Assembly: GCA_049517335.1 (NCBI GenBank)
Contig: JBEKSD010000003.1
Span: 32,185-96,184 of the forward strand
DNA from: Candidatus Omnitrophota bacterium
GTDB lineage: Bacteria; Omnitrophota; Gorgyraeia; Gygaellales; Profunditerraquicolaceae
DNA: 64,000 nt
Direction of reading: 5' to 3'
This document shows positions 45,391 to 63,401 of the stretch, piece after piece (the first letter of the stretch is position 1; every line of letters begins with the position of its first letter). The translations under genes and the position numbers were made by a program. Under the pieces are notes generated by a model. The model saw only the letters and a list, made by a program, of their open reading frames with translations, had not been told where the DNA came from and did no database searches.

Positions 45391-46331
45391 TTTTTCATTT
45401 TCTCCAGTACCTGAAGCCTCTCGGCAGCCTTTGCCGGCCAAGAAGTTTCGGAATAATTATTTATTATATCATTATAATAAATAATGGCTGCGTTATAAGC
45501 CTTCTCTTTTTCGTAGAAACGGGCGATATCGTAGCAGCTGGCCGCCTCTTTTTCTTTTAAAGCCGCAATATTCTTCTCCGCTTCCTGAGACAAAACTGCG
45601 TCGGGATGATCCCGGGCAAACTCCTCAAATTTCTGTTTTGCTTCCTGCATCGCGCCCTGATCATACTCCGGTCCTTGGGATTCTGCTGCGCGGCAGGTGG
45701 CTATCTGGAACCTTGCGGCAGTAGCCCATTCGCTGGAGGGGTAATTTGAGATAACCTTGCCAAACGCTTCCTCTGCATCATAATAACTCAGCTGCTTTTT
45801 TAAAACAAGCCCGAGCATATACTCTGCCTTTGGCGCAAGCGGACCGTAAGTAGAGTTTTCAACTACTTTAGTAAAGATTTCAATAGCCGGGTTCTCAACC
45901 GGTAGAGTAACCCCCAGCGCTTTCCTTTTCGCGCCGTTCATGAAATCTTCTGCGATCTTATACTCACGCCTGATTATTTCCTGGATCCTTTCAGAGAAAG
46001 GATACTTATCGATTACTTTCTGGTAGGCCTGATACGCCTCGTATATATTACCTTTTTCTTCCTCAATTAAACCGATATAATACTGCGATTCGGAAGCCTC
46101 AAAGGACTTAGGATAGGCCTTAAGGAGTTTCTTGAACTCGCGTATCGCGTCCTCATATTTCTTTATATCATAGAAACTTTTGGCATACTCAAACTGCTCT
46201 TTAGGAGTAGATTTGGGTAAGCTTTTAGGATTTACGAATTTCCCGCTCTTAGGAGTCCAGATCCAATAAGGATAGGCCGGGGTTAAACCCAAAGTAAGAA
46301 GTAAAAATATTATTAAGATGCTGCGCTTCAT
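45387..46331 (-). CDS. TPR-repeat lipoprotein, BamD/YfiO-like
   Basis: A signal peptide is followed by several TPR-like helices (YEDAIREFKKLLKAYPKS..., ...YEAYQAYQKVIDKYP). Confidence 0.5.
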   Translation of the reverse strand: MKRSILIIFLLLTLGLTPAYPYWIWTPKSGKFVNPKSLPKSTPKEQFEYAKSFYDIKKYEDAIREFKKLLKAYPKSFEASESQYYIGLIEEEKGNIYEAYQAYQKVIDKYPFSERIQEIIRREYKIAEDFMNGAKRKALGVTLPVENPAIEIFTKVVENSTYGPLAPKAEYMLGLVLKKQLSYYDAEEAFGKVISNYPSSEWATAARFQIATCRAAESQGPEYDQGAMQEAKQKFEEFARDHPDAVLSQEAEKNIAALKEKEAASCYDIARFYEKEKAYNAAIIYYNDIINNYSETSWPAKAAERLQVLEKMKK

Positions 46332-46340
46332 AATGTTTTA

Positions 46341-46369
46341 ACTTTAACATACGGCGGGGATTTTGTCAA
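46341..46369 (-). promoter_or_regulatory. sigma70-like promoter TTGACA-N17-TAAAGT, with the -10 ending 10 nt before the ATG (leaderless candidate)
   Basis: Read directly from the sequence on the minus strand. Confidence 0.4.
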
Positions 46370-46482
46370 CCCGTCTAGAACCAATTCAAACTGCCTCCCA
46401 AGTCCAAATAAAGATTATAATTCAAGCACTCTAACGAATCCCTATTATAGCAAAGATTGGCAAAAAGAATACAAGAATTACA

Positions 46483-46566
46483 TTTACTTAAAATGTCTTT
46501 ACGGGAAATCGCTAAAGCGTTTAAGATAAGTAAAGGAACTGTCTTTAAGGCATTTAAATATCTGAA
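46483..46566 (+). pseudogene. 27-codon remnant of an HTH (resolvase/transposase-type) DNA-binding domain
   Basis: Translation gives MSLREIAKAFKISKGTVFKAFKYLNHS*. It resembles the C-terminal HTH of serine recombinases or IS OrfA (LSLREIAK.FGVSK.TVYR). It lies in an AT-rich intergenic islet. Confidence 0.35.
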
Positions 46567-46783
46567 TCATTCCTAGTAGAAAACTGTCGTTTTTTGTCCG
46601 ATTTTTTAAGGCCTTAAATTACGTAACTCTTTTGTATGCAATAAGTTAAGAATAAATAACGCATCGAGCTATGACATTAGTTCCTAGATGTATTAGTTTG
46701 CAGGTTAGCGTCGGCATTATATAAACCTAGCTTTTTATTCTCTACAATAAGAAGTTTAGCTACTCTTTACGGTATTTCCAGCT

Positions 46784-47152
46784 TTATTCTCCTTTGCTTC
46801 TTTCATTCTCTATCGGATAAATTCTAAAAGCACCATATCCTTGGCTATGTATATAATACTCATCACCATCTAGCTTTGATTTAACCCTTAGTGGCTTATC
46901 TCTCATTATGAAGTCTGTCTTACATATACAAAAATGCTTAAAAGCTTCTTCTGACGAAATTATTACACCATTACTTTTCGTCTCCCTACTTCTTTTTATT
47001 ATCCCTTTAGACTGAGGAGATATTTTTGTTTCTTCTATTCTTCCTGGCTTAACTTCAATCTCGCTATCTTTCTTCGTTAAATCGCTTCGACAATACCTAC
47101 ATTTTATCGCTTCATCTTGGATTTCCTCGGCACAAAAAGGACATTTCTTCAT
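46784..47152 (-). CDS. zinc-ribbon protein of unknown function
   Basis: CPFC...CRYC at the N-terminus. The likely start is MKKCPF. AT-rich. Confidence 0.35.
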
Positions 47153-47368
47153 GATATACCTCCCTGTTTCTTTTATCCACCTGCTCAAAGGCTTTGGGGT
47201 TATTAATTAGCTCTGAGGGAAAGCAAGTATGAAAGTCTTACGAAGAGACTTATTTTCTGGAATTATCTATATTCCATTTTGGCATATTTCATCTTGGAAT
47301 ATATCATATTTATATAAGACAATCAAGATAAATAGGAAGGTAAATATGGATAAAACGGCTGGTTTATT

Positions 47369-48382
47369 CTATGCGTGTGTTTCAGTAAATTTAATGATAT
47401 GTTCCATCATATCAACGCATTCTATAGGATACAAACCGACTGCGGTTTCTGCGGAAAGCATCACGTAATCCGAACCGTCCAATATGGCGTTAGCCACATC
47501 TGAAACCTCCGCCCTTTCAGGGATACGATTCTCAGTCATACTCTCCAGCATCTGAGTAGCGGTAATGACAAATTTTCCTGCTCGGTTACATTTTCTAATT
47601 ATCTCTTTTTGAACTATCGGCACCTCATATATAGGGATAGAAACTCCCATATCCCCTCTTGCGACCATAATCCCATCGCAGACTTTGATTATTTCATCAA
47701 TATTTTTAATGCCTTCCCGGTTCTCGATCTTTGCAATGATCTGACATTTATGCGGATAATTCTTAAGATATTCTCTAATAATAACGATGTCATCCTTACT
47801 TCTTACAAAAGACTGGGCTATATAATCAATTTTATTCTCTATACAAAAACGTATATTCTCCTTGTCTTTTGCTGTCAAATCTTTAAAGCCAATTTTAACG
47901 CCGGGCATATTAATACCCTTACGCTCCTTAATTAGCCCGGGCATAACCACCCTAGTCTTTAATCTATTTCTTTGGCGCTCTAAAACTAAAAGAGCAATAT
48001 TGCCATCATCAATATAAATATGCTGGCCTTTTTTGATCTCATTTAAAGAGTCTTTGTAATCAAACGGTATGAGGCTACCTTTTCCTAAAGTATTCTCTTG
48101 CGTTAACCAAATGACCTCCCCTTTTTTTACTTTGATAGCCTGACCTACCTTTAGTCTACCAACCCTTATGCGGTAACCTTCTAAATCTCCCAATATTTTT
48201 GTATTTAGGCGATATTTTTTATTTAGTTTTCTGATGAGCCGTACCAGATGCAAATGAACCTTTAGGCTAGAGTGAGAGAAATTTAGCCTTGCCACATCCA
48301 TACCAGCACGCATCATCTTTAAGAGGATACTTTCTTTTTTTGAAGCAGGGCCTAAAGTGCAAATTATTTTAGTCTTTGTCAT
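47369..48382 (-). CDS. pyk: pyruvate kinase, A (TIM-barrel) and B domains only; the C-terminal effector domain is absent
   Basis: The PK motifs [25 protein letters not shown] and TATQMLESM are present. The protein ends at ...[26 protein letters not shown], the usual A/C domain junction. Confidence 0.7.
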
Positions 48383-49164
48383 TTACGAATTTTCCCCTTA
48401 TGATTCTTGAGGTTTTTCTCAATACACCTATAATCTTCGATTTCGCAATGCAATTGTTTATTGATTATCTCTAAAGCGCGAGATGTTGTTTCCATTTGGA
48501 TTCTTTTCTTTTGAATACGGTAAAAAATATAGCCGAAGACAAGAAATACAAGAAAAAATAATCCTATCAGCACCAGTAAATTTCTTAAATTCCTATGCAG
48601 CGGGACGGTAAGCGCGCTGAGCCTTTCTGTTACGACAACAGAATAAAGGCCATTTTGCCCCTGTAGGTGGGCAAAGGCAAATAGTTTCATTTCTTTCTTC
48701 GGCTTATCGTCCTTTGTAGGGAACAATAAAATTGCTGTCCCCGAACTGTTAGAATTCAGCTTTTTCATAAAAGCATTTAACTGAGACAATTCCTTTGCGT
48801 TCAATACCTCTTTGCCGACTTCAAGAATATTTTTACCTACGTGCCTTTTAACCGGATCGCTCAAGATAGTATGATTATTATCCATAACAAAGGTGGTAAA
48901 TCTTTCTTGATCATTTATATGTTGTATAAGCTTGTCTATATACCCGGGCTCTTGTTTAATTCCAAGAACCCTGCTTTCAATATCATGACTAGCTGACTTG
49001 GCAATAATCAGAAGTTCACGTAACTCCGCGTTAATAACAGAACGCTCAAAATCAAAATGATTAATCCATCCTAAAGTTAAAATACTACCCACAAACAAAA
49101 CAGCTAAGGTAAATAACAGCGCATTCCTGAAGCTGATAACTTGCCTAGCTATTCTTTTTATCAT
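48379..49164 (-). CDS. membrane protein with a periplasmic sensor-like (Cache-like) domain between two TMs and no output domain
   Basis: TM1 lies at residues ~15-35 and TM2 at ~195-220. The fold assignment is tentative. Confidence 0.3.
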
Positions 49165-50012
49165 TTTGTTACCCCCTGCCCTATACGAGAGACTCTCGCA
49201 ACAAAAATTACTACTCCAAATACAATCATCACGAAACAGAGGATTTGCCCCATACTAAACGGACCTACAATAAATCCTAATTGCTGATCTGGTTCACGAA
49301 AGAACTCTAAAAAGAACCGTATCACTCCATAGCCGATAAGATAGAAAGAGAAAAGCGCTCCAGGAATCCGCACCTTCTTACGCAGGCTCCAGAGAATAAT
49401 AAAAAGAAATAGCCCCTCAAATAACGCTTCATAAAGCTGGGATGGATGCCGTAATTGACGCATAGGGTCTAAAGGAAAATACATACCCCAGGGCACACTA
49501 GTAACGCGTCCGTAAAGTTCGCCATTAATAAAATTTCCTAATCTGCCAAAGGTATACCCTAAAGGAACAGCGGAAACGAATAAATCCGCAAGTATCCAGA
49601 AATTCAACTTAAACTTACGGCAAAAAATTACCGAGGCAGCAATTATTCCTATAAGGGCACCATGATAACTCATTCCGTATAGCCCTATATAGTGGAATCC
49701 GTTATTAATATCAAAAGGTAAGATGATTTCTAAAGGATGCTTAAGGTAATAGGATAAATTATAAAATAAAACATACCCTATCCTGCCGCCGGTTAAAAGA
49801 GCAATAGTTATCCAAAGAAAATAAGTGTCTATAGACTCTTTTTTAAATTCAATCTTTTCGTTTTTCAGCCTATACAAAACAAACAAATATACGGTAAGAA
49901 AAGCCAAAAGATACATCAGCCCATAATAATGCACCTGTACCGGGCCTATTCTAAGTGCAATAGGGCTAATGTGTTCAGGAATATGTTTCCACAAGCTAAT
50001 GAATTCTTTCAT
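49161..50012 (-). CDS. lgt: prolipoprotein diacylglyceryl transferase
   Basis: 283 aa and multi-TM. The Lgt signature G103-like region reads GRLGNFINGELYG. Confidence 0.85.
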   Translation of the reverse strand: MKEFISLWKHIPEHISPIALRIGPVQVHYYGLMYLLAFLTVYLFVLYRLKNEKIEFKKESIDTYFLWITIALLTGGRIGYVLFYNLSYYLKHPLEIILPFDINNGFHYIGLYGMSYHGALIGIIAASVIFCRKFKLNFWILADLFVSAVPLGYTFGRLGNFINGELYGRVTSVPWGMYFPLDPMRQLRHPSQLYEALFEGLFLFIILWSLRKKVRIPGALFSFYLIGYGVIRFFLEFFREPDQQLGFIVGPFSMGQILCFVMIVFGVVIFVARVSRIGQGVTK

Positions 50013-56751: not shown

Positions 56752-56776
56752 ATTTATCCTCTTAATATATAATAAG

Positions 56777-56849
56777 TGGAGCTGAGGGGGATTGAACCCC
56801 TGACCCCTTGCATGCCATGCAAGTGCTCTCCCAGCTGAGCTACAGCCCC
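56777..56849 (-). tRNA. tRNA-Ala (anticodon GGC)
   Basis: The manually folded RNA is GGGGCUGUAGCUCAGCUGGGAGAGC-ACUUGCAUGGCAUGCAAG-...-GGUUCAAUCCCCUCAGCUCCA. It has a G3:U70 pair, the anticodon loop AUGGCAU and no encoded CCA. Confidence 0.85.
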
Positions 56850-56912
56850 GAAATTAATCTATTGACCTTTGTTATTTTAGAATATAAAATAAGCTCCGTC
56901 AATCTTAATCTT

Positions 56913-56995
56913 GCCGAGGTGGTGGAATGGCATACACGTCGGTCTCAAAAACCGATGAGTTCACGCTCGTGAGGGTTCAACTCCCTCCCTCGGCA
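56913..56995 (+). tRNA. tRNA-Leu (anticodon CAA), type II with a long variable arm
   Basis: The acceptor stem is GCCGAGG/CCUCGGC. The anticodon arm is UCGGU-CUCAAAA-ACCGA. The T-arm is GAGGG-UUCAACU-CCCUC. The RNA is 83 nt. Confidence 0.85.
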
Positions 56996-57015
56996 TTATC
57001 TTTTTCTCTCCTCGT

Positions 57016-58101
57016 CTATAAATCTCCATTTTTGCCTTTCTTTGGCATAACTTTTGGCATAAGACCGGTATCTATTTTTGTTATCTCTAATCCCCGTGCC
57101 ACATTCTCCGGCGTAGCGTGTGCGTAATATTTAAAAATAGTTGCGCTATCCTTATGCCCTGTTATTGCCTTTACCACTTCCACATTGGCTGTATTATCTA
57201 AAATGTTAGTTACTACCCAATGCCTAAATATATGGTTAGTGATATTCTTTTTTATGTCTAGCTCCTTACAGGCACGCTTTACATAATTTAATAACAGGTC
57301 TTTCCCTATAAAATCTGTTCCTTTATGGAATGGCGGGTAGAGCAAACCATCGGGCTTATATTTCTTCATCTTCTTCAGGAGGATTATGTGTTCATTAAAA
57401 ACCATACAATCCTGATCCGTTAATTTTGCTGGTCTTGGCTCTGTTTTAGCATTTCTGATATACACAATCTTGCTGGCTAAATCCACATCAGAAATGAGCA
57501 TTTTCCTAAACTCACTCCTTCGCCATCCTCTAGTAATAACGAAATATATCCAAGCGTAGAAGTAAGGTTTATTCTTATAAAACCATTTAAGAATCTTTAA
57601 CCGTTCTTCCTGAGTAGGCAGAATCCAAACTTTCTTCTCAAAAGGAAAACTCCTTATTTCCTTGGGGTCAAACTTTGTAACCAGTCTTTTATTTAATGCG
57701 CTCTTGCCTATTTCCTTCAGATAATCAAGGTCTCTATTTATGCCTGATTTTGACCTTCCCTCATCGTGTTTACTGTTTTTGTAGTCGTTAAGTAGGCTTT
57801 CTGAATAATCTTCCATTGATTGTCTTGACCGCTTCTGAAGAAATATATCAAAGTGATGCACTGTCTCCAGAAATACTTCTCTCGTAGCATCAGAGGGTCT
57901 CTTGCTTTCTAAAACTTGTAAGGCAAAATCCTTGAAAGCAGTATCTTTAGTTAATATCCCCCCAAGTTCCCGCCTCCCAGCTTCATCCTTGGCATCTTTT
58001 TTCCCAGGATATTTGCTTTTGGGGATAGTGGCAAATTTCTGCTTACTATCAACCATCCACCAAATACGCCAACTATTTTTCCGTGAAACTACTCCAGCCA
58101 T
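57016..58101 (-). CDS. int: tyrosine-type site-specific integrase
   Basis: The C-terminal catalytic motifs HIFRHWVVT (HxxR) and GHKDSATIFKYYAH (catalytic Tyr) are present. The gene is adjacent to the tRNA. Confidence 0.85.
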   Translation of the reverse strand: MAGVVSRKNSWRIWWMVDSKQKFATIPKSKYPGKKDAKDEAGRRELGGILTKDTAFKDFALQVLESKRPSDATREVFLETVHHFDIFLQKRSRQSMEDYSESLLNDYKNSKHDEGRSKSGINRDLDYLKEIGKSALNKRLVTKFDPKEIRSFPFEKKVWILPTQEERLKILKWFYKNKPYFYAWIYFVITRGWRRSEFRKMLISDVDLASKIVYIRNAKTEPRPAKLTDQDCMVFNEHIILLKKMKKYKPDGLLYPPFHKGTDFIGKDLLLNYVKRACKELDIKKNITNHIFRHWVVTNILDNTANVEVVKAITGHKDSATIFKYYAHATPENVARGLEITKIDTGLMPKVMPKKGKNGDL

Positions 58102-58105
58102 AAGT

Positions 58106-58270
58106 TTATTGCTTGCCGTCCTTTTTCATTTTACTTAATACTTCAGCTAAGTCATATCTGTGATTTCTCCCAATTACGAGAGCAGGAATTATTCCCTTCC
58201 TCCTGTAATAATCAACCATCGCTGGGGAAATCTTTAATTCCTTTGCCAATTCTTCCTTATCAATAAGCAT
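58106..58270 (-). CDS. xis: excisionase/AlpA-like HTH DNA-binding protein (54 aa; not in the ORF track)
   Basis: Manual translation gives MLIDKEELAKELKISPAMVDYYRRKGIIPALVIGRNHRYDLAEVLSKMKKDGKQ*. It lies directly upstream of int. Confidence 0.65.
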   Translation of the reverse strand: MLIDKEELAKELKISPAMVDYYRRKGIIPALVIGRNHRYDLAEVLSKMKKDGKQ

Positions 58271-58273
58271 TTT

Positions 58274-58849
58274 TTAACCCTCCTGTTTTACCAAAATTCG
58301 CTTTCCTAATTGCCTGTTCTTTTTCCTAATTCCACTGTATCGCAAATAATACCCCCCTGTTGCTCTCGGTCTTTTATCTTTACTTCCAAGATGCCTCCCA
58401 AGCTTAATCCCATCTCTTTTTGCTCTTTCTAAACCACTGATTACCCTACTCCTGATAATTTCCCTCTCCAACTCGCCAAAAACTCCCAAGAGTTGCCAAA
58501 ATGCTTTAGACACAGGGTCATCTGCCTTAGCGGTATCAATATTGTCCGTAACAGATACTAACCTAATTTTCCTATTCCTAAATTCTTGGAATAAATTCAA
58601 GAGGTGTGATAGGCTGCGGGCTATGCGGTCTAATTTATAGATTACAATAACATCGAATTTCTTATTCCTCATATCAATTAAAAGCTGATTTAATTGCGGT
58701 CTTGATTCTTTGGCGCCGCTAACGCCAACGTCAACATATTCCCTAAAGACCTTTATCTTATGCTCACGACAGAAATCCCTAGGTGGCAATAGCTGTGTTT
58801 CAGCAACCTGTTTGCCTGTAGAGACTCTGCCATAAATTGCTCCCAACAT
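58274..58849 (-). CDS. serine recombinase (resolvase/invertase family)
   Basis: AIYGRVSTGKQ is the catalytic Ser motif, inside the resolvase N-terminal domain. Confidence 0.8.
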   Translation of the reverse strand: MLGAIYGRVSTGKQVAETQLLPPRDFCREHKIKVFREYVDVGVSGAKESRPQLNQLLIDMRNKKFDVIVIYKLDRIARSLSHLLNLFQEFRNRKIRLVSVTDNIDTAKADDPVSKAFWQLLGVFGELEREIIRSRVISGLERAKRDGIKLGRHLGSKDKRPRATGGYYLRYSGIRKKNRQLGKRILVKQEG

Positions 58850-58984
58850 AAAACCTCCTTTACTTATTCCGAATTACCCCTAGTAGGGTTTAGTTATATA
58901 AAAAATAACCTATAAATCTGTACCCCCAAAGGATTATTTTATCTTTGAAAATCATGGTCACGGAACTTTGGGGAAAACAAGAAG

Positions 58985-59200
58985 TTACCAAAATCCATTA
59001 GGCTCAGAAATTGGTATTTTTAATTTTCTCCTGCTCCTTTTTATGCGAGAATCTTGTTCAAGCTTGAATCGGCAAAAAGGACACGCCTCTGCGCTCACGC
59101 CATTCTTTAATATTTCCTTATCTGGATACCACCAACCACCACAAGTCTGACATTCCTCCAAATTTACCTTAGCCTTTGCTCCTAACGGTTCTTTTTCCAT
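58985..59200 (-). CDS. small zinc-finger protein
   Basis: CQTCGG...CPFC in 71 aa. Confidence 0.35.
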   Translation of the reverse strand: MEKEPLGAKAKVNLEECQTCGGWWYPDKEILKNGVSAEACPFCRFKLEQDSRIKRSRRKLKIPISEPNGFW

Positions 59201-59280
59201 CTGATTCCTCCTTGTTAATTAAATTATTCCATAAATAAATCAAATTACTAACCCCCACTTTGTTTAAATAAAGTCTTGAT

Positions 59281-59309
59281 AAAATAAAAACCCAGTCTTA
59301 AAGACTGGG
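59281..59309 (-). terminator. rho-independent terminator downstream of the 59343-61274 gene pair
   Basis: The stem cccagtct/agactggg is followed on the minus-strand RNA by UUUUUAUUUU. Confidence 0.55.
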
Positions 59310-59342
59310 TATAAAAATTGATTTTAGTATTATACTTAGTTC

Positions 59343-59927
59343 TTAATCGTATTTCTTACTATAAACAATCTCCTTGATTGTCTTAATTGTTCTATGATAT
59401 TTACGTGATAGCCAATCAATAGCATATGAAGGTTTATCTCCTCTTTTCCTCAGTTTCTTAAATTCTGCCCTAATCTTTCTTTTATACTCAAAATAGTCAA
59501 TATTTTTAAGGGCTCCGTATTTGAATTTTCTTCCTTTTAATGATTTTTTGATTTCAGGCAAATAATCTCTTATATCTCCTGAATTTGCCCATTCGGGGAT
59601 AGATAAATTAATTTCTGCATCTTTACCTTTTGATTCCACTTTGAGCCCTTTAAGAACTGGTTTATTACCCCTGAAACCTTGAAGCCCCCATTTTAAACAA
59701 AGCCGACTCATAGCAAAAAATGCAATCATATATTTTCTTTTTCTTAGATGATTAAGATTTAAATCCTCTCCGGCTATCTTCTTTAATTCTGACAAGTCTT
59801 TTTGAAATTCGGGTTTGGACTCTAACTCTCTTAGTTTAGCCTGAAGTCTTCTAACATATGGAAGGTAAATGATTTTAGGCGGGCAATTCCTATTAGCTAA
59901 TTCTTTTAACGCTTCTTCCTTTTTCAT
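59343..59927 (-). CDS. hypothetical highly basic protein (island cargo)
   Basis: 194 aa and K/R-rich. No motif was recognised. Confidence 0.35.
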   Translation of the reverse strand: MKKEEALKELANRNCPPKIIYLPYVRRLQAKLRELESKPEFQKDLSELKKIAGEDLNLNHLRKRKYMIAFFAMSRLCLKWGLQGFRGNKPVLKGLKVESKGKDAEINLSIPEWANSGDIRDYLPEIKKSLKGRKFKYGALKNIDYFEYKRKIRAEFKKLRKRGDKPSYAIDWLSRKYHRTIKTIKEIVYSKKYD

Positions 59928-59936
59928 AATGTATAT

Positions 59937-61274
59937 TTACGACTTATTTTTTCTTTGTTTCTTTTTTAATTGCTTAATTCTGTATTGCTCTGCTTCTACT
60001 ATTTCTTTTGCATATGTAACCATTTTATCGTATTCTTTCTTTCCTTTCGCCTTATTAACGAATAATGATAAATCCTTAACACCTTGTTCCATATCATAAA
60101 ATTTATAACCTATAATGCCCATTGCAAATAAGAAAGCAATTTCATTTTTATTCTCCTGATATCGCTGATTAAAGAATTCCAGGAGTTGGGGTATATATAC
60201 ATCAATTACAGTAAAAGATATGACCTTCTTATACCAAAATAATGCCCTATCATAGTTCTTTTCCAATAGCATAAAAAAGGCATTATTGAGGAAAACCACT
60301 GGGTGTTCTTTTTCAATCTCGCTTGCTTTAGCAGTATACCCTTTGGCTTTATTTAAATCTCCCAAGAAATATTCTAATCTTGCCAATTGGATATAAACAC
60401 GGAAATGATTTATCGGAAGCCGCAGTAGCTCTATGAAACATTGCTTAGCCACTCTATATTCTTTTTTTTCAATCAGCTCTTCTCCTATCAATATGTATAA
60501 TTCGCTGATGATTACGTTAATTCTGCCTTCAATAAGAGGTTTAAAGGTATCGGGTTTCATAGCTGCCAACATCTGTTGTAGACCGTTAAATAATTTTAAC
60601 GCATCGCGCAACCTATTATCAGTAAACAGATGTATTCCAAAAATGAAAATCCCAGCTTCGACAAAGTTATCAGCAACCTTTATCTCTTCAAATAATGTGT
60701 TGTCAATGTTGAGTATCCAATCACGAGTTCCAGCAATCAAAGCTAAATCGGCATTAAACAGCAACATCTTATTTTTTAACCACTGATTTAGCCTATAAGT
60801 ATAATTTAAGCTGAAGCTAACGACATCTTTACCTTCCTTTGTTTCAACGAAAGCGCTGCCCCAAATAATTAAATCCACTCCTTGGTTCTCACAATATTGA
60901 ACCGCTTCTTCACGTTTATTAATAATATCGGAAGCTATATTAATTATTTTCACTTCCTTAGAAATATTAAAATTATCAAGCTTAATTCTAAGCTTTTCTA
61001 ATACTTTTTCGAAATGTAATTTTGACTTATCATCTGTTTTAATGCAGAAAATCAATGTGTATTTATTGGTAGGCAAAATAAATCTTCCGCTTTTACAGAA
61101 CCAAAACGCCATCCATAAAAGAATTAAGGCAGGAGCAATATATAAGACGAAAGGAATTTTGATTATGTAGCATATTAACGAAATTAACAAAATACCACCC
61201 AATAACCCACCAATGGTTTTGGGTTCTTTCTTTAATGAACCTAAAGCTAAATCAAATAGTCCTTTCATACCCAT
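59937..61274 (-). CDS. membrane-anchored (2 TM) protein with an alpha/beta region and a C-terminal TPR-like helical domain (island cargo)
   Basis: Hydrophobic helices lie at ~20-60. The alternating beta/alpha pattern is LIFCIKT...VKIINIAS...DLIIWGS. The C-terminus is helical and repeat-like. Confidence 0.35.
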   Translation of the reverse strand: MGMKGLFDLALGSLKKEPKTIGGLLGGILLISLICYIIKIPFVLYIAPALILLWMAFWFCKSGRFILPTNKYTLIFCIKTDDKSKLHFEKVLEKLRIKLDNFNISKEVKIINIASDIINKREEAVQYCENQGVDLIIWGSAFVETKEGKDVVSFSLNYTYRLNQWLKNKMLLFNADLALIAGTRDWILNIDNTLFEEIKVADNFVEAGIFIFGIHLFTDNRLRDALKLFNGLQQMLAAMKPDTFKPLIEGRINVIISELYILIGEELIEKKEYRVAKQCFIELLRLPINHFRVYIQLARLEYFLGDLNKAKGYTAKASEIEKEHPVVFLNNAFFMLLEKNYDRALFWYKKVISFTVIDVYIPQLLEFFNQRYQENKNEIAFLFAMGIIGYKFYDMEQGVKDLSLFVNKAKGKKEYDKMVTYAKEIVEAEQYRIKQLKKKQRKNKS

Positions 61275-61433
61275 ATTTTGTTTTTACATTATACCACTAT
61301 CAACCCAAATATGGCGGGTAAATAAACTATTAATTGTTTGGTTTAGAAACTAATGAGTAGGTATCGACGATAAAGCTTAATTACTTTTATAGGGGGGTTT
61401 ATTTGGCAAACCTAAGGAGTATTTATATAGAGG

Positions 61434-61940
61434 CTATTCCCAACCTTTTATCTTATAGTCAAAGGTTATTTTCTTAATCTGCGGGTTGCTTTCATATTTA
61501 TTAAGGCACCGCTTGTCCATCTTGAAGCCTTTTTGCCTATTTATTCTACACTGTCTTTCAAATTCTACCCAAGGCAATAGATACATCCGTATATTATTAG
61601 CATCATCAATTGAATCAACTACGACAGCAAGATAAGGCTCACAATCAAAGATTTTGCAGGCAGATAATACTTCTCTTTTGCTTGGGATGGTTACATTGCT
61701 ATAAGCTTGCCCTCTTTCACGGGTGCGGGCTTTAACACTTATGCCTAGCCTTTCTTTTGTCTTCTTGTTATACGCTATTAAGTCAATTCCAATATAATCA
61801 ACATTAACAACCTCATAGCCATACTTAGATAGCCAATACATCAGCATAGCTTCGCCAAAGTCGCCAGCAATCTTACTATGCCTTGAGCTCTTTCTTATTT
61901 CCATGTAAAGGATTGTATCACCTACTTTAGTGGGTGTCAA
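61434..61940 (-). CDS. small PD-(D/E)xK-fold nuclease-like protein (Hjc/Mrr-cat-like core)
   Basis: The pattern G..GE..L...L.K.G..V is followed by GIDLIAY (Asp) and ISVKAR (x-V-K), which matches the restriction-endonuclease-like core. The assignment rests on the motif pattern only. Confidence 0.4.
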   Translation of the reverse strand: MTPTKVGDTILYMEIRKSSRHSKIAGDFGEAMLMYWLSKYGYEVVNVDYIGIDLIAYNKKTKERLGISVKARTRERGQAYSNVTIPSKREVLSACKIFDCEPYLAVVVDSIDDANNIRMYLLPWVEFERQCRINRQKGFKMDKRCLNKYESNPQIKKITFDYKIKGWE

Positions 61941-61972
61941 TATGTGGAATTTTATGGGAGAATTGGAGCGTG

Positions 61973-62182
61973 GAAAATATTAATGCTGGATTTGGAAAAC
62001 ACTTAAAAGACCTACGCAGAAAAAAGAAGATAACTCAAGAGGAGCTTGCGGAATTGGCTAACTTGGAATACAAATACATCCAGCGCCTTGAGGGTAAGAA
62101 GCCTTCTTCTCCTACCTTAAACACCTTAGAGAAACTTGCCAAAGCCTTCAGTATAACTCCTTCACAATTACTTAAATTTTAA
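61973..62182 (+). CDS. XRE-family (Cro/C1-type) HTH transcriptional regulator
   Basis: The HTH reads LKDLRRKKKITQEELAELANLEYKYIQRLE. The probable GTG start is at 61973. The ORF track begins at the ATG at 61934, which overlaps the divergent gene. Confidence 0.65.
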   Translation, partial: ENINAGFGKHLKDLRRKKKITQEELAELANLEYKYIQRLEGKKPSSPTLNTLEKLAKAFSITPSQLLKF

Positions 62183-62186
62183 TTAC

Positions 62187-63401
62187 TTATTTCTCTTTAT
62201 CCTGTAATTTTGATAAAGAAACGGATTTTTTGGATTCAATCTTTAAAAAACCTTTAATTTTAGTCATTATCTTCTTATCCCATCTTGATTCATTAACGGC
62301 TTTTTCAACTGCATAGGTGTCTATATCAGCGACTTCATCCCACTTGCCGGCTTCCTTTAACGCTTTTGATAATTCTTCCCGTTCTTCGCTTCCCTTAGGA
62401 GGACAGGAAACTTTCTGTTTTTCGGCAACTTTAAGCTTATTATTGTTGCCTATGATAATGCTGGATTTTTCTTCTTCGGCATACTGGATAACCGCTTCTT
62501 TTACCTTATCTATTTCCTCATCTATTTTGTCAATCTCTCCCTGTTGCTCACGCTTCTTAGCTACAAGCTTAGCGAAAGTATTTACAAGCTTTACGCCGCT
62601 GTCTTTTAGGTATTCATTTACAGGTAGAGCTTCCACTTTATAGAGGTGCTTTCTCTTGGGGCAAAGGTCAGGATATACGCACCATTCGCAAAGGCTACTT
62701 TCATTCGGTAGGAATTCCTCTGTAGCTTCAATCTTATCAATTAGGACTGCCGTATCATTCTTTAGCTGCTCCAATTGTTTATCAGTCCTCACAGAGGACA
62801 TTTCCTTGTCAAAAACCACATAATGCCAGATTAACTTGACCTTATTGACATCATTCCAAGTGTCGCTTATGCCAATTTGATACAGAGCAAGCTGTCTATC
62901 CTCATCAAAATGCGCCTGTCCGGGCAAGGATCCGGAAGTCTTATAATCATGTATCTCATAAGTATCGTCTTGTGCTTGGGCTAGCCTATCTATGTAACCC
63001 CTAAGCTTATATTTACCGTCCCCATTTAAGTCAATCAAAACCTCCCTCTCAAGACCTAAGACCCTGCTCTGGTCAAAGGGAGAATAGCGCTTATAATAAT
63101 CCTCAATGCATTTCCTGCCTATGTTTTTGTAGTCCTCAGCGGTTCTATCTTTCTTAGTAACAATAATAGTATCGTTATATTCCTTATCCCATTGGCTTTC
63201 ATAATAACCCAATAGCTCCTTTAAGGAATATGTCTTGCATTTAAGGTCTTTATAGAGTTTCTGCATGGTTTCGTGGAAACGAGAACCCATAAATGCCTCA
63301 ATGCCTTCTTGTTCACGCTCAATCTTATCTATGTAGGAAAACTTATACCGGAGAGGACAGGATTCAAAACTATTTAATCTGGAATGGGAATATATAGGCA
63401 T
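62187..63401 (-). CDS. Cas4-like / RecB-family PD-(D/E)xK exonuclease with a 4-Cys Fe-S motif and a KE-rich C-terminal tail
   Basis: The N-terminus reads YSHSRLNSFESCPLRYKFSYID. The RecB motif is IHDYKTSG. The C-terminal Cys triad reads LCEWCVYPDLCP. Confidence 0.6.
   Translation of the reverse strand: MPIYSHSRLNSFESCPLRYKFSYIDKIEREQEGIEAFMGSRFHETMQKLYKDLKCKTYSLKELLGYYESQWDKEYNDTIIVTKKDRTAEDYKNIGRKCIEDYYKRYSPFDQSRVLGLEREVLIDLNGDGKYKLRGYIDRLAQAQDDTYEIHDYKTSGSLPGQAHFDEDRQLALYQIGISDTWNDVNKVKLIWHYVVFDKEMSSVRTDKQLEQLKNDTAVLIDKIEATEEFLPNESSLCEWCVYPDLCPKRKHLYKVEALPVNEYLKDSGVKLVNTFAKLVAKKREQQGEIDKIDEEIDKVKEAVIQYAEEEKSSIIIGNNNKLKVAEKQKVSCPPKGSEEREELSKALKEAGKWDEVADIDTYAVEKAVNESRWDKKIMTKIKGFLKIESKKSVSLSKLQDKEK

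What the first reader, a model, noticed from the sequence alone, without database searches (positions are those of the whole stretch)
59343..61274. Two-gene cargo module: a basic 194-aa protein and a 2TM-anchored alpha/beta plus TPR-like 445-aa protein
The two genes are co-directional, separated by 9 nt and share a terminator at 59281-59309. Neither has a recognisable family. The larger one combines an N-terminal two-helix membrane anchor, a Rossmann-like beta/alpha segment and a helical repeat C-terminus. That domain logic recurs in membrane-disrupting or NAD-depleting defence effectors.
Basis: inference. Interest (0 to 1): 0.5.

Follow-up and report, generated by a model that had tools for sequence, protein, structure and literature searches.

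The report
Membrane-anchored TPR gene in defence islands
The larger gene belongs to an undescribed family of membrane-anchored repeat proteins that moves between genomes on its own and usually sits among anti-phage genes, so it is a reasonable but untested candidate immunity gene; the smaller gene is a one-off orphan, not a conserved partner.

Summary
Two co-directional ORFs (445 aa and 194 aa) lie 9 nt apart with one terminator, in a low-GC integrase island beside tRNA-Leu in an Omnitrophota MAG. Neither matches any Pfam, NCBIfam, PHROG or PADLOC family.

- The pair is not a module. The 194-aa protein has no relative in 5.8 billion proteins, and none of the homologue loci encodes one.
- The 445-aa protein has a two-helix membrane hairpin, a cytoplasmic alpha/beta domain and real TPRs. 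The alpha/beta domain has a mixed sheet (beta3-beta4 hairpin). Its weak best fold matches are PelC, TolB-N and anticodon-binding domains, not TIR, SIR2 or SLOG.
- Across about 170 sequence clusters with the same architecture, only structural residues are conserved, so no shared catalytic site is visible.
- In 8 of 11 informative loci of the close family, the gene lies next to recognised defence genes (PifA, Old, caspase-like, AbiTii, AbiGi, SspB, TIR, Mrr/type IIG). It is more AT-rich than its surroundings in 13 of 13 loci.
- Two more distant relatives sit among housekeeping genes.

Best reading: a stand-alone, mobile, non-enzymatic membrane sensor-effector and candidate anti-phage gene. The mechanism is inferred, not shown.

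The parts
59937..61274 (-). Gene for the 445-aa protein, the family member that recurs elsewhere. An alternative start two codons in (61268) gives the 443-aa form called in another assembly.
   Evidence: ORF. 13 full-length homologues at 48-100% identity. 174 clusters at 50% identity with the same architecture. The 443-aa form is P0001.
61215..61274 (-). Residues 1-20: short basic N-terminal tail with a predicted amphipathic helix (3-16). In the wider family it ends in the motif W-[KR]-T-[KR]-x-G. Inferred to be cytoplasmic.
   Evidence: Model. N-terminal sequences of distant members. Net positive charge. The topology is inferred from the positive-inside rule.
61095..61214 (-). Residues 21-60: two-helix transmembrane hairpin with a 1-4 residue outer loop. 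G23 and W58 are conserved across the superfamily.
   Evidence: Hydropathy above 1.6 over residues 19-61. Helices 21-38 and 43-62. G23 in 77% and W58 in 88% of 133 members.
61065..61094 (-). Residues 61-70: conserved juxtamembrane linker K-S-G-R-x-I-x-P.
   Evidence: S62, G63, R64 and P68 are invariant in the close family. R64 is R or K in 71% of the superfamily.
60705..61064 (-). Residues 71-190: cytoplasmic alpha/beta domain with order b1-a1-b2-a2-b3-b4(hairpin)-a3-b5. Its fold resembles PelC, the TolB N-domain and anticodon-binding domains.
60504..60704 (-). Residues 191-257: helical region joining the alpha/beta domain to the TPRs. It carries N203 and E206, among the few conserved polar positions.
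   Evidence: Helices 190-218, 222-237 and 245-269. N203 conserved in 79% and E206 in 74%.
60219..60503 (-). Residues 258-352: about three genuine tetratricopeptide repeats.
59940..60218 (-). Residues 353-445: helical C-terminal region, modelled poorly at 354-395, ending in a variable lysine/arginine-rich tail.
   Evidence: pLDDT below 50 for 354-395. F367, D394 and F405 are conserved across the superfamily. The tail has pI 10.4 and low conservation.
59343..59927 (-). Gene for the 194-aa basic orphan protein. It starts 9 nt after the upstream stop and is probably co-transcribed. It is specific to this lineage.
   Evidence: ORF. The only match in 5.8 billion proteins is itself. No match in the Protein Data Bank, in phages or in homologue loci. 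pI 10.0.
59281..59310 (-). Intrinsic terminator-like hairpin plus T-run that closes the two-gene unit.
   Evidence: It is the only such site found in 58800-62300.
61271..61314 (-). Promoter-like extended -10 element (TGgTATAAT, 61296-61288). It is bracketed by an inverted repeat, CCATATTTGGGTT / AAACAAAATATGG, whose downstream arm overlaps the start codon. This may be an operator. It was not tested, and the repeat could be chance.
   Evidence: Sequence. Inverted repeat I1, 13 nt, 85% complementary. No Rfam family in the region.
56912..58101 (.). Island boundary: tRNA-Leu(CAA) at 56912-56996(+) and the adjacent tyrosine integrase at 57016-58101(-).
   Evidence: GC drop. No second att repeat was found up to window-equivalent position 66706.

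Best explanation
The 445-aa gene is a self-contained, horizontally mobile gene of an undescribed protein family.

Architecture (shown by sequence analysis and structure prediction):
- a short cytoplasmic tail
- a two-helix membrane hairpin
- a cytoplasmic alpha/beta domain of the PelC / TolB-N / anticodon-binding-domain fold type
- about three TPRs plus further helices

It carries no recognisable enzyme, and no catalytic constellation is conserved across the superfamily.

Genomic behaviour (shown): the gene travels alone. In its close clade it lands in integrase islands and among known anti-phage genes.

Proposed mechanism (inferred): it acts as a one-protein sensor-effector in phage or mobile-element conflict.
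1. The cytoplasmic TPR/helical part binds a protein ligand, either a phage protein or a host protein altered by infection.
2. This changes the packing or oligomeric state of the membrane-proximal alpha/beta domain.
3. That change gathers or re-orients the hairpins, so the inner membrane is perturbed (abortive infection) or DNA entry is blocked (superinfection exclusion).

The 194-aa basic protein is a lineage-specific addition co-expressed in this one element. It may be a nucleic-acid-binding or regulatory accessory. It is not part of the conserved unit.
For: Stand-alone gene:
- The homologue loci share only this gene.
- No relative of the 194-aa protein exists anywhere.

Defence neighbourhood of the close family (PADLOC E-values):
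- PifA 1.5e-91, caspase 1.8e-19, Old 1e-77, PDC-S02 1.7e-93 plus type IIG R-M 1e-283
- AbiTii 5e-14 and TIR effector 1.8e-8
- SspB 4.4e-47, AbiGi 3e-8 and PDC-S31 5.6e-55
- That is 8 of 11 informative loci. The probability is below about 1e-3 for any assumed per-locus background up to 0.25.

Mobility:
- There are integrase islands in the window and in L001.
- The window island also carries weak SIR2-like and PtuB-like genes just past the window edge.
- The gene is more AT-rich than its surroundings in 13 of 13 loci.
- A decayed 105-aa remnant sits in a defence island.
- The family was not found in 185,579 GTDB species genomes.

Architecture:
- Models are; TPR evidence is.
- The hairpin and the N-terminal motif are kept in distant members.

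Non-enzymatic:
- Superfamily-wide conservation is limited to Gly, Trp, Ala, Phe and Tyr plus a few Asn, Glu and Asp.

Regulation:
- XRE-type HTH regulators lie adjacent in L020 and L021 and nearby in L012 and the window. From general knowledge, this is common for defence genes.
Against: - There is no experimental evidence of any kind.
- No member hits any PADLOC model.
- Two more distant relatives (about 24% and 32% identity) lie between housekeeping genes with no defence neighbours. The ancestral role may therefore be ordinary.
- The TPR region is as conserved as the rest of the protein, 0.71 against 0.71-0.73. It is not hypervariable, as many phage sensors are.
- Most contexts are short metagenome contigs. 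The background rate of defence neighbours was assumed, not measured.
- AT-richness could partly reflect a Lys/Ile/Asn/Phe-rich composition.
- The hairpin is the least conserved ordered part (0.59), which fits a plain anchor as well as an effector.
Confidence: 0.4

Rival explanations
1. It is a housekeeping-type membrane-tethered TPR adaptor that organises or regulates a host envelope or membrane process, in the manner of other TM-anchored TPR scaffolds. Its presence in islands would then be incidental hitch-hiking.
For: - Distant members sit among ccm genes, a glycosyltransferase, PEMT and an M23 peptidase, and among glmS, purC, pgsA, pgpA, cinA and recA.
- One close member lies next to Wzy_C and a methyltransferase.
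- There is no catalytic signature, and conservation is even along the whole length.
- Length and architecture are uniform across about 170 clusters.
Against: - No operon partner is conserved in any context.
- Defence genes flank 8 of 11 close-family loci.
- The gene is compositionally foreign in 13 of 13 loci, including the two 'housekeeping' ones.
- The family is patchy, was not found in GTDB species representatives, and includes a decayed copy.
- In the Wzy_C locus the downstream neighbour is AbiGi-like and the methyltransferase is mad2-like.
Confidence: 0.25
2. One reading: the 445-aa and 194-aa proteins form an obligate two-gene effector module, such as effector plus regulator or immunity partner.
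For: - The spacer is 9 nt, and the two genes share a promoter-like element and a terminator.
- Both genes are island cargo with similar codon use (cosine 0.86).
Against: - The 194-aa protein matches only itself among 5.8 billion proteins.
- No homologue locus encodes anything similar.
- In other loci the downstream gene is different or absent.
- The large gene therefore works without it in every other genome.
Confidence: 0.1
3. It is a mobile-element maintenance or life-cycle protein, for example a membrane factor for element transfer, lysis timing or exclusion of sister elements, rather than host immunity.
For: - It sits close to the integrase end of two integrative elements.
- The window island also carries a phage-type PD-(D/E)XK exonuclease and an HNH protein.
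Against: - No relative was found in 50,697 phage records, 72,556 plasmids or IMG/VR.
- Most loci show defence genes rather than element core genes around it.
- At 445 aa with TPRs, it is unlike holins.
Confidence: 0.08
4. The alpha/beta domain is a TIR-, SIR2- or SLOG-like NAD(P)- or nucleotide-processing enzyme tethered to the membrane.
For: - It has a three-layer alpha/beta architecture.
- Many polar residues are invariant within the close family: K79, D81, E144, T145, R161, D191-N192-T193.
Against: - No TIR, SIR2 or SLOG HMM hit in 74 members.
- Beta3 and beta4 form an antiparallel hairpin, unlike the all-parallel sheets of those folds.
- The polar residues are not conserved across the superfamily.
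Confidence: 0.03

Closest known systems
PelC / TolB N-terminal domain / class II aminoacyl-tRNA synthetase anticodon-binding domain fold (SCOP c.51 'anticodon-binding domain-like'; the fold name is from memory)
   Same: - The secondary-structure order is the same: b-a-b-a-b-b(hairpin)-a-b, with strand 4 antiparallel.
- These are the best Foldseek hits: PelC E 1.3e-3 with probability 0.99, HisRS/ThrRS/ProRS anticodon-binding domains, TolB-N and FlgT.
- Like PelC and FlgT, the domain sits right at a membrane.
   Different: - There is no sequence similarity: 0 Protein Data Bank hits at E <= 10.
- It is predicted to be cytoplasmic rather than periplasmic, and it is fused to a TM hairpin and to TPRs.
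- Ring formation is not shown.
Membrane-acting defence effectors with N-terminal TM helices (2TM/SLATT-type effectors of CBASS and related systems, KwaA of Kiwa, Tmn, RexB; from memory and the abstracts listed)
   Same: - It has a TM hairpin joined to a cytoplasmic domain.
- It resides in defence islands.
- No nuclease or NADase domain is present, so the membrane is the likeliest target.
   Different: - There is no detectable homology: PADLOC 0 of 74 members, and Pfam finds only TPRs.
- It has no signalling partner such as a cyclase, no NTPase domain and no second subunit.
TPR-sensor immune proteins (Avs/STAND-type receptors; from memory and the abstract of PMC13581612)
   Same: A C-terminal TPR array could act as a protein-binding sensor in a defence-island gene.
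   Different: - It has no STAND NTPase and no enzymatic effector.
- The TPR region is short (about three repeats) and as conserved as the rest of the protein.
TM-anchored 'TolB/FlgO-like + TPR' sensor proteins, such as the 575-aa neighbour in L001 (6003-7730)
   Same: The domain types come in the same order: TM, small alpha/beta domain, TPRs. The neighbour has a weak FlgO hit plus several TPR hits and lies directly upstream of a family member.
   Different: - Profile comparison shows no homology (hhalign probability 0.2%).
- The sequence motifs differ.
- In that family the module is probably extracytoplasmic (inferred).
LapB/YciM- and YfgM-type membrane-anchored TPR adaptors (from memory)
   Same: They share an N-terminal membrane anchor and a TPR scaffold without enzymatic activity.
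   Different: - There is no NCBIfam or Pfam match.
- It has a two-helix hairpin and an extra alpha/beta domain, and no rubredoxin-type zinc domain.
- Its distribution is patchy and island-borne instead of conserved and chromosomal.

Membership tests
TIR domain | Match to TIR sequence profiles | tested here: not met
   No TIR hit in Pfam or PADLOC for the window protein or for any of 74 superfamily members.
TIR domain | Flavodoxin-like fold with an all-parallel five-stranded sheet | tested here: not met
SIR2 | Rossmann-type NAD-binding fold and SIR2 profile match | tested here: not met
   No profile hit. No sirtuin appears among the fold matches.
SLOG / LOG | SLOG/LOG profile match and Rossmann-like fold with glycine-rich nucleotide loop | tested here: not met
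   No profile hit. No LOG or DprA-like structure appears among the fold matches. No conserved glycine-rich loop; the only invariant Gly in the domain is G139 in the W-G of strand 3.
Tetratricopeptide repeat (TPR) proteins | Tandem 34-residue helix-turn-helix repeats matching TPR profiles | tested here: met
PelC / TolB-N / anticodon-binding-domain-like fold | Three-layer alpha/beta fold with a five-stranded mixed sheet in which strand 4 is antiparallel | tested here: inconclusive
Defence-island gene family (guilt-by-association criterion) | Most family members lie next to known defence genes | tested here: met
   Close family: 8 of 11 informative loci have a PADLOC-recognised neighbour. Caveats: the background rate was assumed, the contigs are short, and 0 of 2 distant members show it by Pfam annotation.
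Known defence systems in PADLOC v2 | Match to any PADLOC protein model | tested here: not met
   0 families for both window proteins and 0 of 74 superfamily members.
Conserved two-gene operon (effector plus partner, or toxin-antitoxin-like) | The same two genes are adjacent in unrelated genomes | tested here: not met
   The 194-aa protein is unique. No similar ORF occurs in any homologue locus. Neighbours differ in every context.
Anti-phage function | Protection against phage when expressed | not testable with these tools
   This requires cloning and phage challenge.
Two-pass inner-membrane protein with both ends in the cytoplasm | Two TM helices with positively charged flanks on the cytoplasmic side | tested here: inconclusive
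   Hydropathy and model give two helices. The N-tail (4 K) and the post-TM2 segment (K61, R64, K71) are basic, and the outer loop is 1-4 residues. The topology itself is inferred from the positive-inside rule. No dedicated predictor or experiment was used.

The most novel reading that the evidence does not exclude
The 445-aa protein founds a new single-gene, non-enzymatic, membrane-acting anti-phage family (2TM hairpin, PelC-like switch domain, TPR sensor). The family would be spread through uncultured lineages such as Omnitrophota. In this reading, ligand binding by the TPRs drives ring-like assembly of the membrane-proximal alpha/beta domain and converts the hairpins into a membrane lesion.
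Probability: 0.25. Interest if true: 0.6.

Novelty: new variant of a known kind. Interest (0 to 1): 0.4.

Why it matters
If the defence role is real, this adds a compact, one-gene, enzyme-free immune protein from a phylum with no cultured model and almost no characterised defence genes. It would also give a function to an alpha/beta domain that no family database describes. It would be another case in which immunity acts through the membrane rather than through nucleases or NAD depletion. If the role is not real, the result is still useful. It removes a false 'two-gene NADase-like effector' annotation and defines a roughly 170-cluster family of membrane-anchored TPR proteins for later study.

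Tried and rejected
Family and structure searches:
- Pfam, NCBIfam, PHROG and PADLOC scans of both proteins found nothing beyond sub-threshold TPR hits.
- Sequence searches of the Protein Data Bank with the alpha/beta-domain profile and with the 194-aa protein found 0 hits.
- A PD-(D/E)XK-like reading of D134...E144-x-K146 was rejected. Both acidic residues lie on one strand and K146 is variable.
- TIR, SIR2 and SLOG were rejected (see the membership tests).
- Homology between the family and the adjacent 575-aa TM/FlgO-like/TPR protein of L001 was rejected (hhalign probability 0.2%).

Searches of sequence collections:
- tblastn against phage and plasmid collections found no match.
- Scans of GTDB genomes (two tries) and of IMG/VR found no relatives.
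- The 74-sequence alignment was too divergent for pattern scans.
- The third big-database search, run with the superfamily profile, was swamped by generic TPR proteins and added only one eligible member.

Partner and neighbour searches:
- A search for any relative of the 194-aa protein in homologue loci found none.
- A search for conserved small upstream or downstream ORFs found only one pair, L001 158 aa and L005 80 aa. It was not seen in the other loci.

Non-coding and boundary checks:
- A search for attR, a repeat of the tRNA-Leu 3' end, found nothing up to position 66706.
- An Rfam scan of the unit gave only chance-level hits.
- My crude terminator scan downstream of the homologues was uninformative.

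Literature:
- Searches for a described TM-plus-TPR single-gene defence system found nothing matching.
Full report
**1. Observation**

They are separated by 9 nt.
- Given the local base composition, the chance of such stop-free stretches is 4.7e-18 and 1.6e-8, so both are real ORFs.
- The only terminator-like site in 58800-62300 is a 9-bp stem at 59310..59290(-) followed by a T-run.
- Upstream of the large gene there is an extended -10-like TGgTATAAT at 61296-61288. A 13-nt inverted repeat brackets it, and its downstream arm overlaps the start codon.
- No Rfam family matches in the unit.
- The 194-aa protein is strongly basic (pI 10.0) and has no hydrophobic segment. The 445-aa protein has one hydrophobic block at residues 19-61.

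**2. Setting**

The window comes from a Candidatus Omnitrophota MAG, according to the source's name for the 194-aa protein.
- GC drops from ~0.43 to ~0.35 immediately after tRNA-Ala and tRNA-Leu at 56776-56996.
- After the tRNAs come a tyrosine integrase, a 54-aa MerR-like HTH protein, a serine resolvase and a 71-aa zinc-ribbon ORF, and then the pair.
- Beyond the pair lie a weak YraN/UPF0102-like gene, a divergent XRE regulator and a PD-(D/E)XK exonuclease.
- An identical JGI contig extends 2.7 kb past the window. It adds a 196-aa, a 74-aa and a 372-aa protein (the last a weak SIR2-like PADLOC hit, 4e-7) and an HNH protein (a weak PtuB-like hit).
- No second copy of the tRNA end was found, so the far island boundary is unknown.
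- 'Cargo of an integrative island' is therefore confirmed.

**3. The pair is not a conserved module**

The 194-aa protein matches only itself among 5.8 billion clustered proteins. It has no match in the Protein Data Bank or in phage genomes.

The 445-aa protein has 13 full-length relatives at 48-100% identity. I recovered their loci.
- tblastn with the 194-aa protein finds nothing in any of them.
- An all-against-all comparison of neighbouring ORFs shows that the only thing these loci share is the 445-aa gene.
- The downstream gene elsewhere is different, or is separated by 115-430 nt.
The large gene is the unit.

**4. Anatomy of the large protein**

AlphaFold with the family alignment gives the following (domain-only model pLDDT 81, pTM 0.77):
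- an amphipathic helix (3-16)
- two membrane helices (21-38 and 43-62)
- an alpha/beta domain (strands 72-80, 108-112, 135-146, 149-160 and 187-189, with three helices)
- an all-helical region running to the C-terminus

Both the N-tail and the segment after the second helix (K61, R64, K71) are basic, and the outer loop is 1-4 residues. The soluble part is therefore most likely cytoplasmic. This is inferred from the positive-inside rule.

**5. The alpha/beta domain is not TIR, SIR2 or SLOG**
- Strands 3 and 4 are joined by a two-residue turn, so the sheet is mixed rather than all-parallel.
- Foldseek's best hits are PelC (E 1.3e-3, probability 0.99), the anticodon-binding domains of HisRS, ThrRS and ProRS, TolB-N and FlgT.
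- These converge on the 'anticodon-binding-domain-like' fold, but the scores are weak, so I treat the assignment as tentative.
- No TIR, SIR2 or SLOG profile matches any member.

**6. A larger superfamily without a catalytic signature**

A profile of residues 60-255 was scored against 1.84 billion representative proteins. It finds 174 clusters at E <= 1e-3, of which 89 are at E <= 1e-10. Nearly all are 400-480 aa, with the domain starting at residue ~55-90.
- The N-termini keep the pattern W-[KR]-T-[KR]-x-G, helix, loop, helix, W..SGR.
- In an alignment of 133 full-length members, the conserved positions are G23, W58, A124, W138, G139 (100%), W186, A298, A332, F333, Y348, F367 and F405. N203, E206 and D394 are partly conserved.
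- The polar residues that are invariant in the close family (K79, D81, E144, R161, D191) are not conserved.
- This pattern argues for a structural, binding or switching protein rather than an enzyme.

**7. Neighbourhoods**

Close-family loci, with PADLOC E-values for the neighbours:
- L004: PifA 1.5e-91, plus DUF4062
- L011: caspase-like 1.8e-19
- L012: HTH plus Old nuclease 1e-77
- L018: AbiTii/Ymh 5e-14
- L019, a 105-aa remnant of the gene: Mrr/PDC-S02 1.7e-93, PDC-S31 5.6e-55, type IIG R-M 1e-283
- L021: HTH plus SspB 4.4e-47
- L008: AbiGi-like 3e-8 immediately downstream and a mad2-like methyltransferase
- L001: TIR-effector-like 1.8e-8, and an integrase
- L005 and L020: no recognised defence neighbour
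- L022: no usable neighbour

That is 8 of 11 informative loci. For any assumed per-locus background up to 0.25, the binomial probability is below about 1e-3. The background was assumed, not measured.

The gene is more AT-rich than the rest of its locus in 13 of 13 loci. No relative was found in cultured-phage, plasmid, IMG/VR or GTDB-representative collections.

Against this, two more distant relatives (P0045 and P0016) lie among ordinary chromosomal genes. The one next to P0016 is preceded by a 63-aa ORF with a weak type I restriction R-subunit N-terminal hit.

**8. Interpretation**

What is shown:
- a stand-alone gene of an undescribed family
- a membrane hairpin, a cytoplasmic alpha/beta domain and TPRs
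- no conserved catalytic residues
- horizontal mobility, and defence-island residence of the close clade

What is inferred: the protein is a one-component sensor-effector in phage or mobile-element conflict.
1. The TPR/helical part binds a protein cue.
2. The membrane-proximal alpha/beta domain transmits or oligomerises.
3. The hairpin perturbs the membrane (abortive infection) or blocks entry (superinfection exclusion).

The PelC/FlgT resemblance makes ring-like assembly under the membrane an attractive but untested idea. I put about 0.4 on the defence or conflict role with this general mechanism.

Rival readings:
- A housekeeping-type membrane-tethered TPR adaptor is the main rival (about 0.25). 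It is supported by the two distant contexts and by the even conservation.
- The two-gene module: about 0.1.
- A mobile-element life-cycle role: about 0.08.
- A TIR/SIR2/SLOG-like enzyme: about 0.03.

**9. The 194-aa protein**

It is real as an ORF and is probably co-transcribed. It is a lineage-specific orphan. Its strong basic charge, and what looks by eye like a C-terminal helix-turn-helix (residues ~165-190; no profile supports this), suggest nucleic-acid binding or regulation. Nothing here tests that.

**10. Novelty and score**

The family has no entry in Pfam, NCBIfam, PHROGs or PADLOC, and I found no matching description in the literature searches. As a kind of thing, a TM-anchored defence-island protein with a repeat sensor, it is a new variant of a known kind and not categorically new. 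Candidate defence families of this sort are numerous, and the evidence is association only, so interest is moderate (0.4).

Noticed in passing
window 56776-58849: Island entry point: tRNA-Ala(GGC) and tRNA-Leu(CAA) are followed directly by a tyrosine integrase (57016-58101), a 54-aa MerR/excisionase-like HTH protein (58106-58270) and a serine resolvase (58274-58849). That puts two different recombinases side by side at one island end.
   Followed up: partly
window 58985-59200 (-): A 71-aa ORF with two CxxC pairs (zinc-ribbon-like, sub-threshold Pfam hit) lies between the pair's terminator and the resolvase. It has its own good Shine-Dalgarno sequence (AAGGAGG).
   Followed up: no
window 61434-62182: An XRE-family HTH gene (61934-62182, +; PADLOC capH-like 2.6e-13) is divergent from, and nearly abuts, a 156/168-aa weak YraN/UPF0102-like gene (61434-61904/61940, -). 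XRE regulators also lie beside or near family members in L020, L021 and L012.
   Followed up: partly
window 61271-61314: An inverted repeat, CCATATTTGGGTT / AAACAAAATATGG, brackets the -10-like element, and its downstream arm overlaps the start codon of the 445-aa gene. It may be an operator or a start-codon-sequestering hairpin, or it may be chance in AT-rich DNA.
   Followed up: no
window 62187-63401 (-): A 404-aa PD-(D/E)XK nuclease (Pfam 2.6e-32). It resembles phage exonucleases (phrog_69, 2.9e-30) and Cas4 (2.7e-8), and its C-terminal part weakly resembles Pam3 gp33 (DUF7307).
   Followed up: partly
L014 1-3243 (equivalent to window coordinates 63464-66706, mostly beyond the window edge): The island continues with an HNH protein (255 aa, weak PtuB-like hit), a 372-aa protein with a weak SIR2-like PADLOC hit but no Pfam hit, and small ORFs of unknown function. 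This may be a second defence-type unit in the same island.
   Followed up: partly
window 46000-50000: A second low-GC stretch (0.35-0.38 against ~0.43-0.46 around it) contains four or five minus-strand ORFs. It may be another acquired segment.
   Followed up: no
L001 6003-7730: Directly upstream of a family member lies a 575-aa protein with the same order of domain types (TM, FlgO/TolB-like alpha/beta domain, TPRs). It has no detectable homology to the family (hhalign probability 0.2%). This may be convergent architecture or a coincidence.
   Followed up: yes
L019 6278-6595: A 105-aa remnant of the family gene (residues 114-206, 53% identity) sits between an M23-peptidase giant protein and Mrr/PDC-S31/type IIG restriction genes. 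This is evidence of gene decay inside a defence island.
   Followed up: partly
window 60433-60786 (+) and 61042-61170 (+): Antisense ORFs inside the 445-aa gene appear 'conserved' in homologue loci. This is a shadow of the conserved sense frame, not evidence of overlapping genes.
   Followed up: yes
L024 9697-9888: The 63-aa ORF just upstream of a distant family member has a weak hit to the N-terminus of type I restriction R subunits (E 3.9e-4). It may be a defence-gene fragment in an otherwise housekeeping neighbourhood.
   Followed up: no
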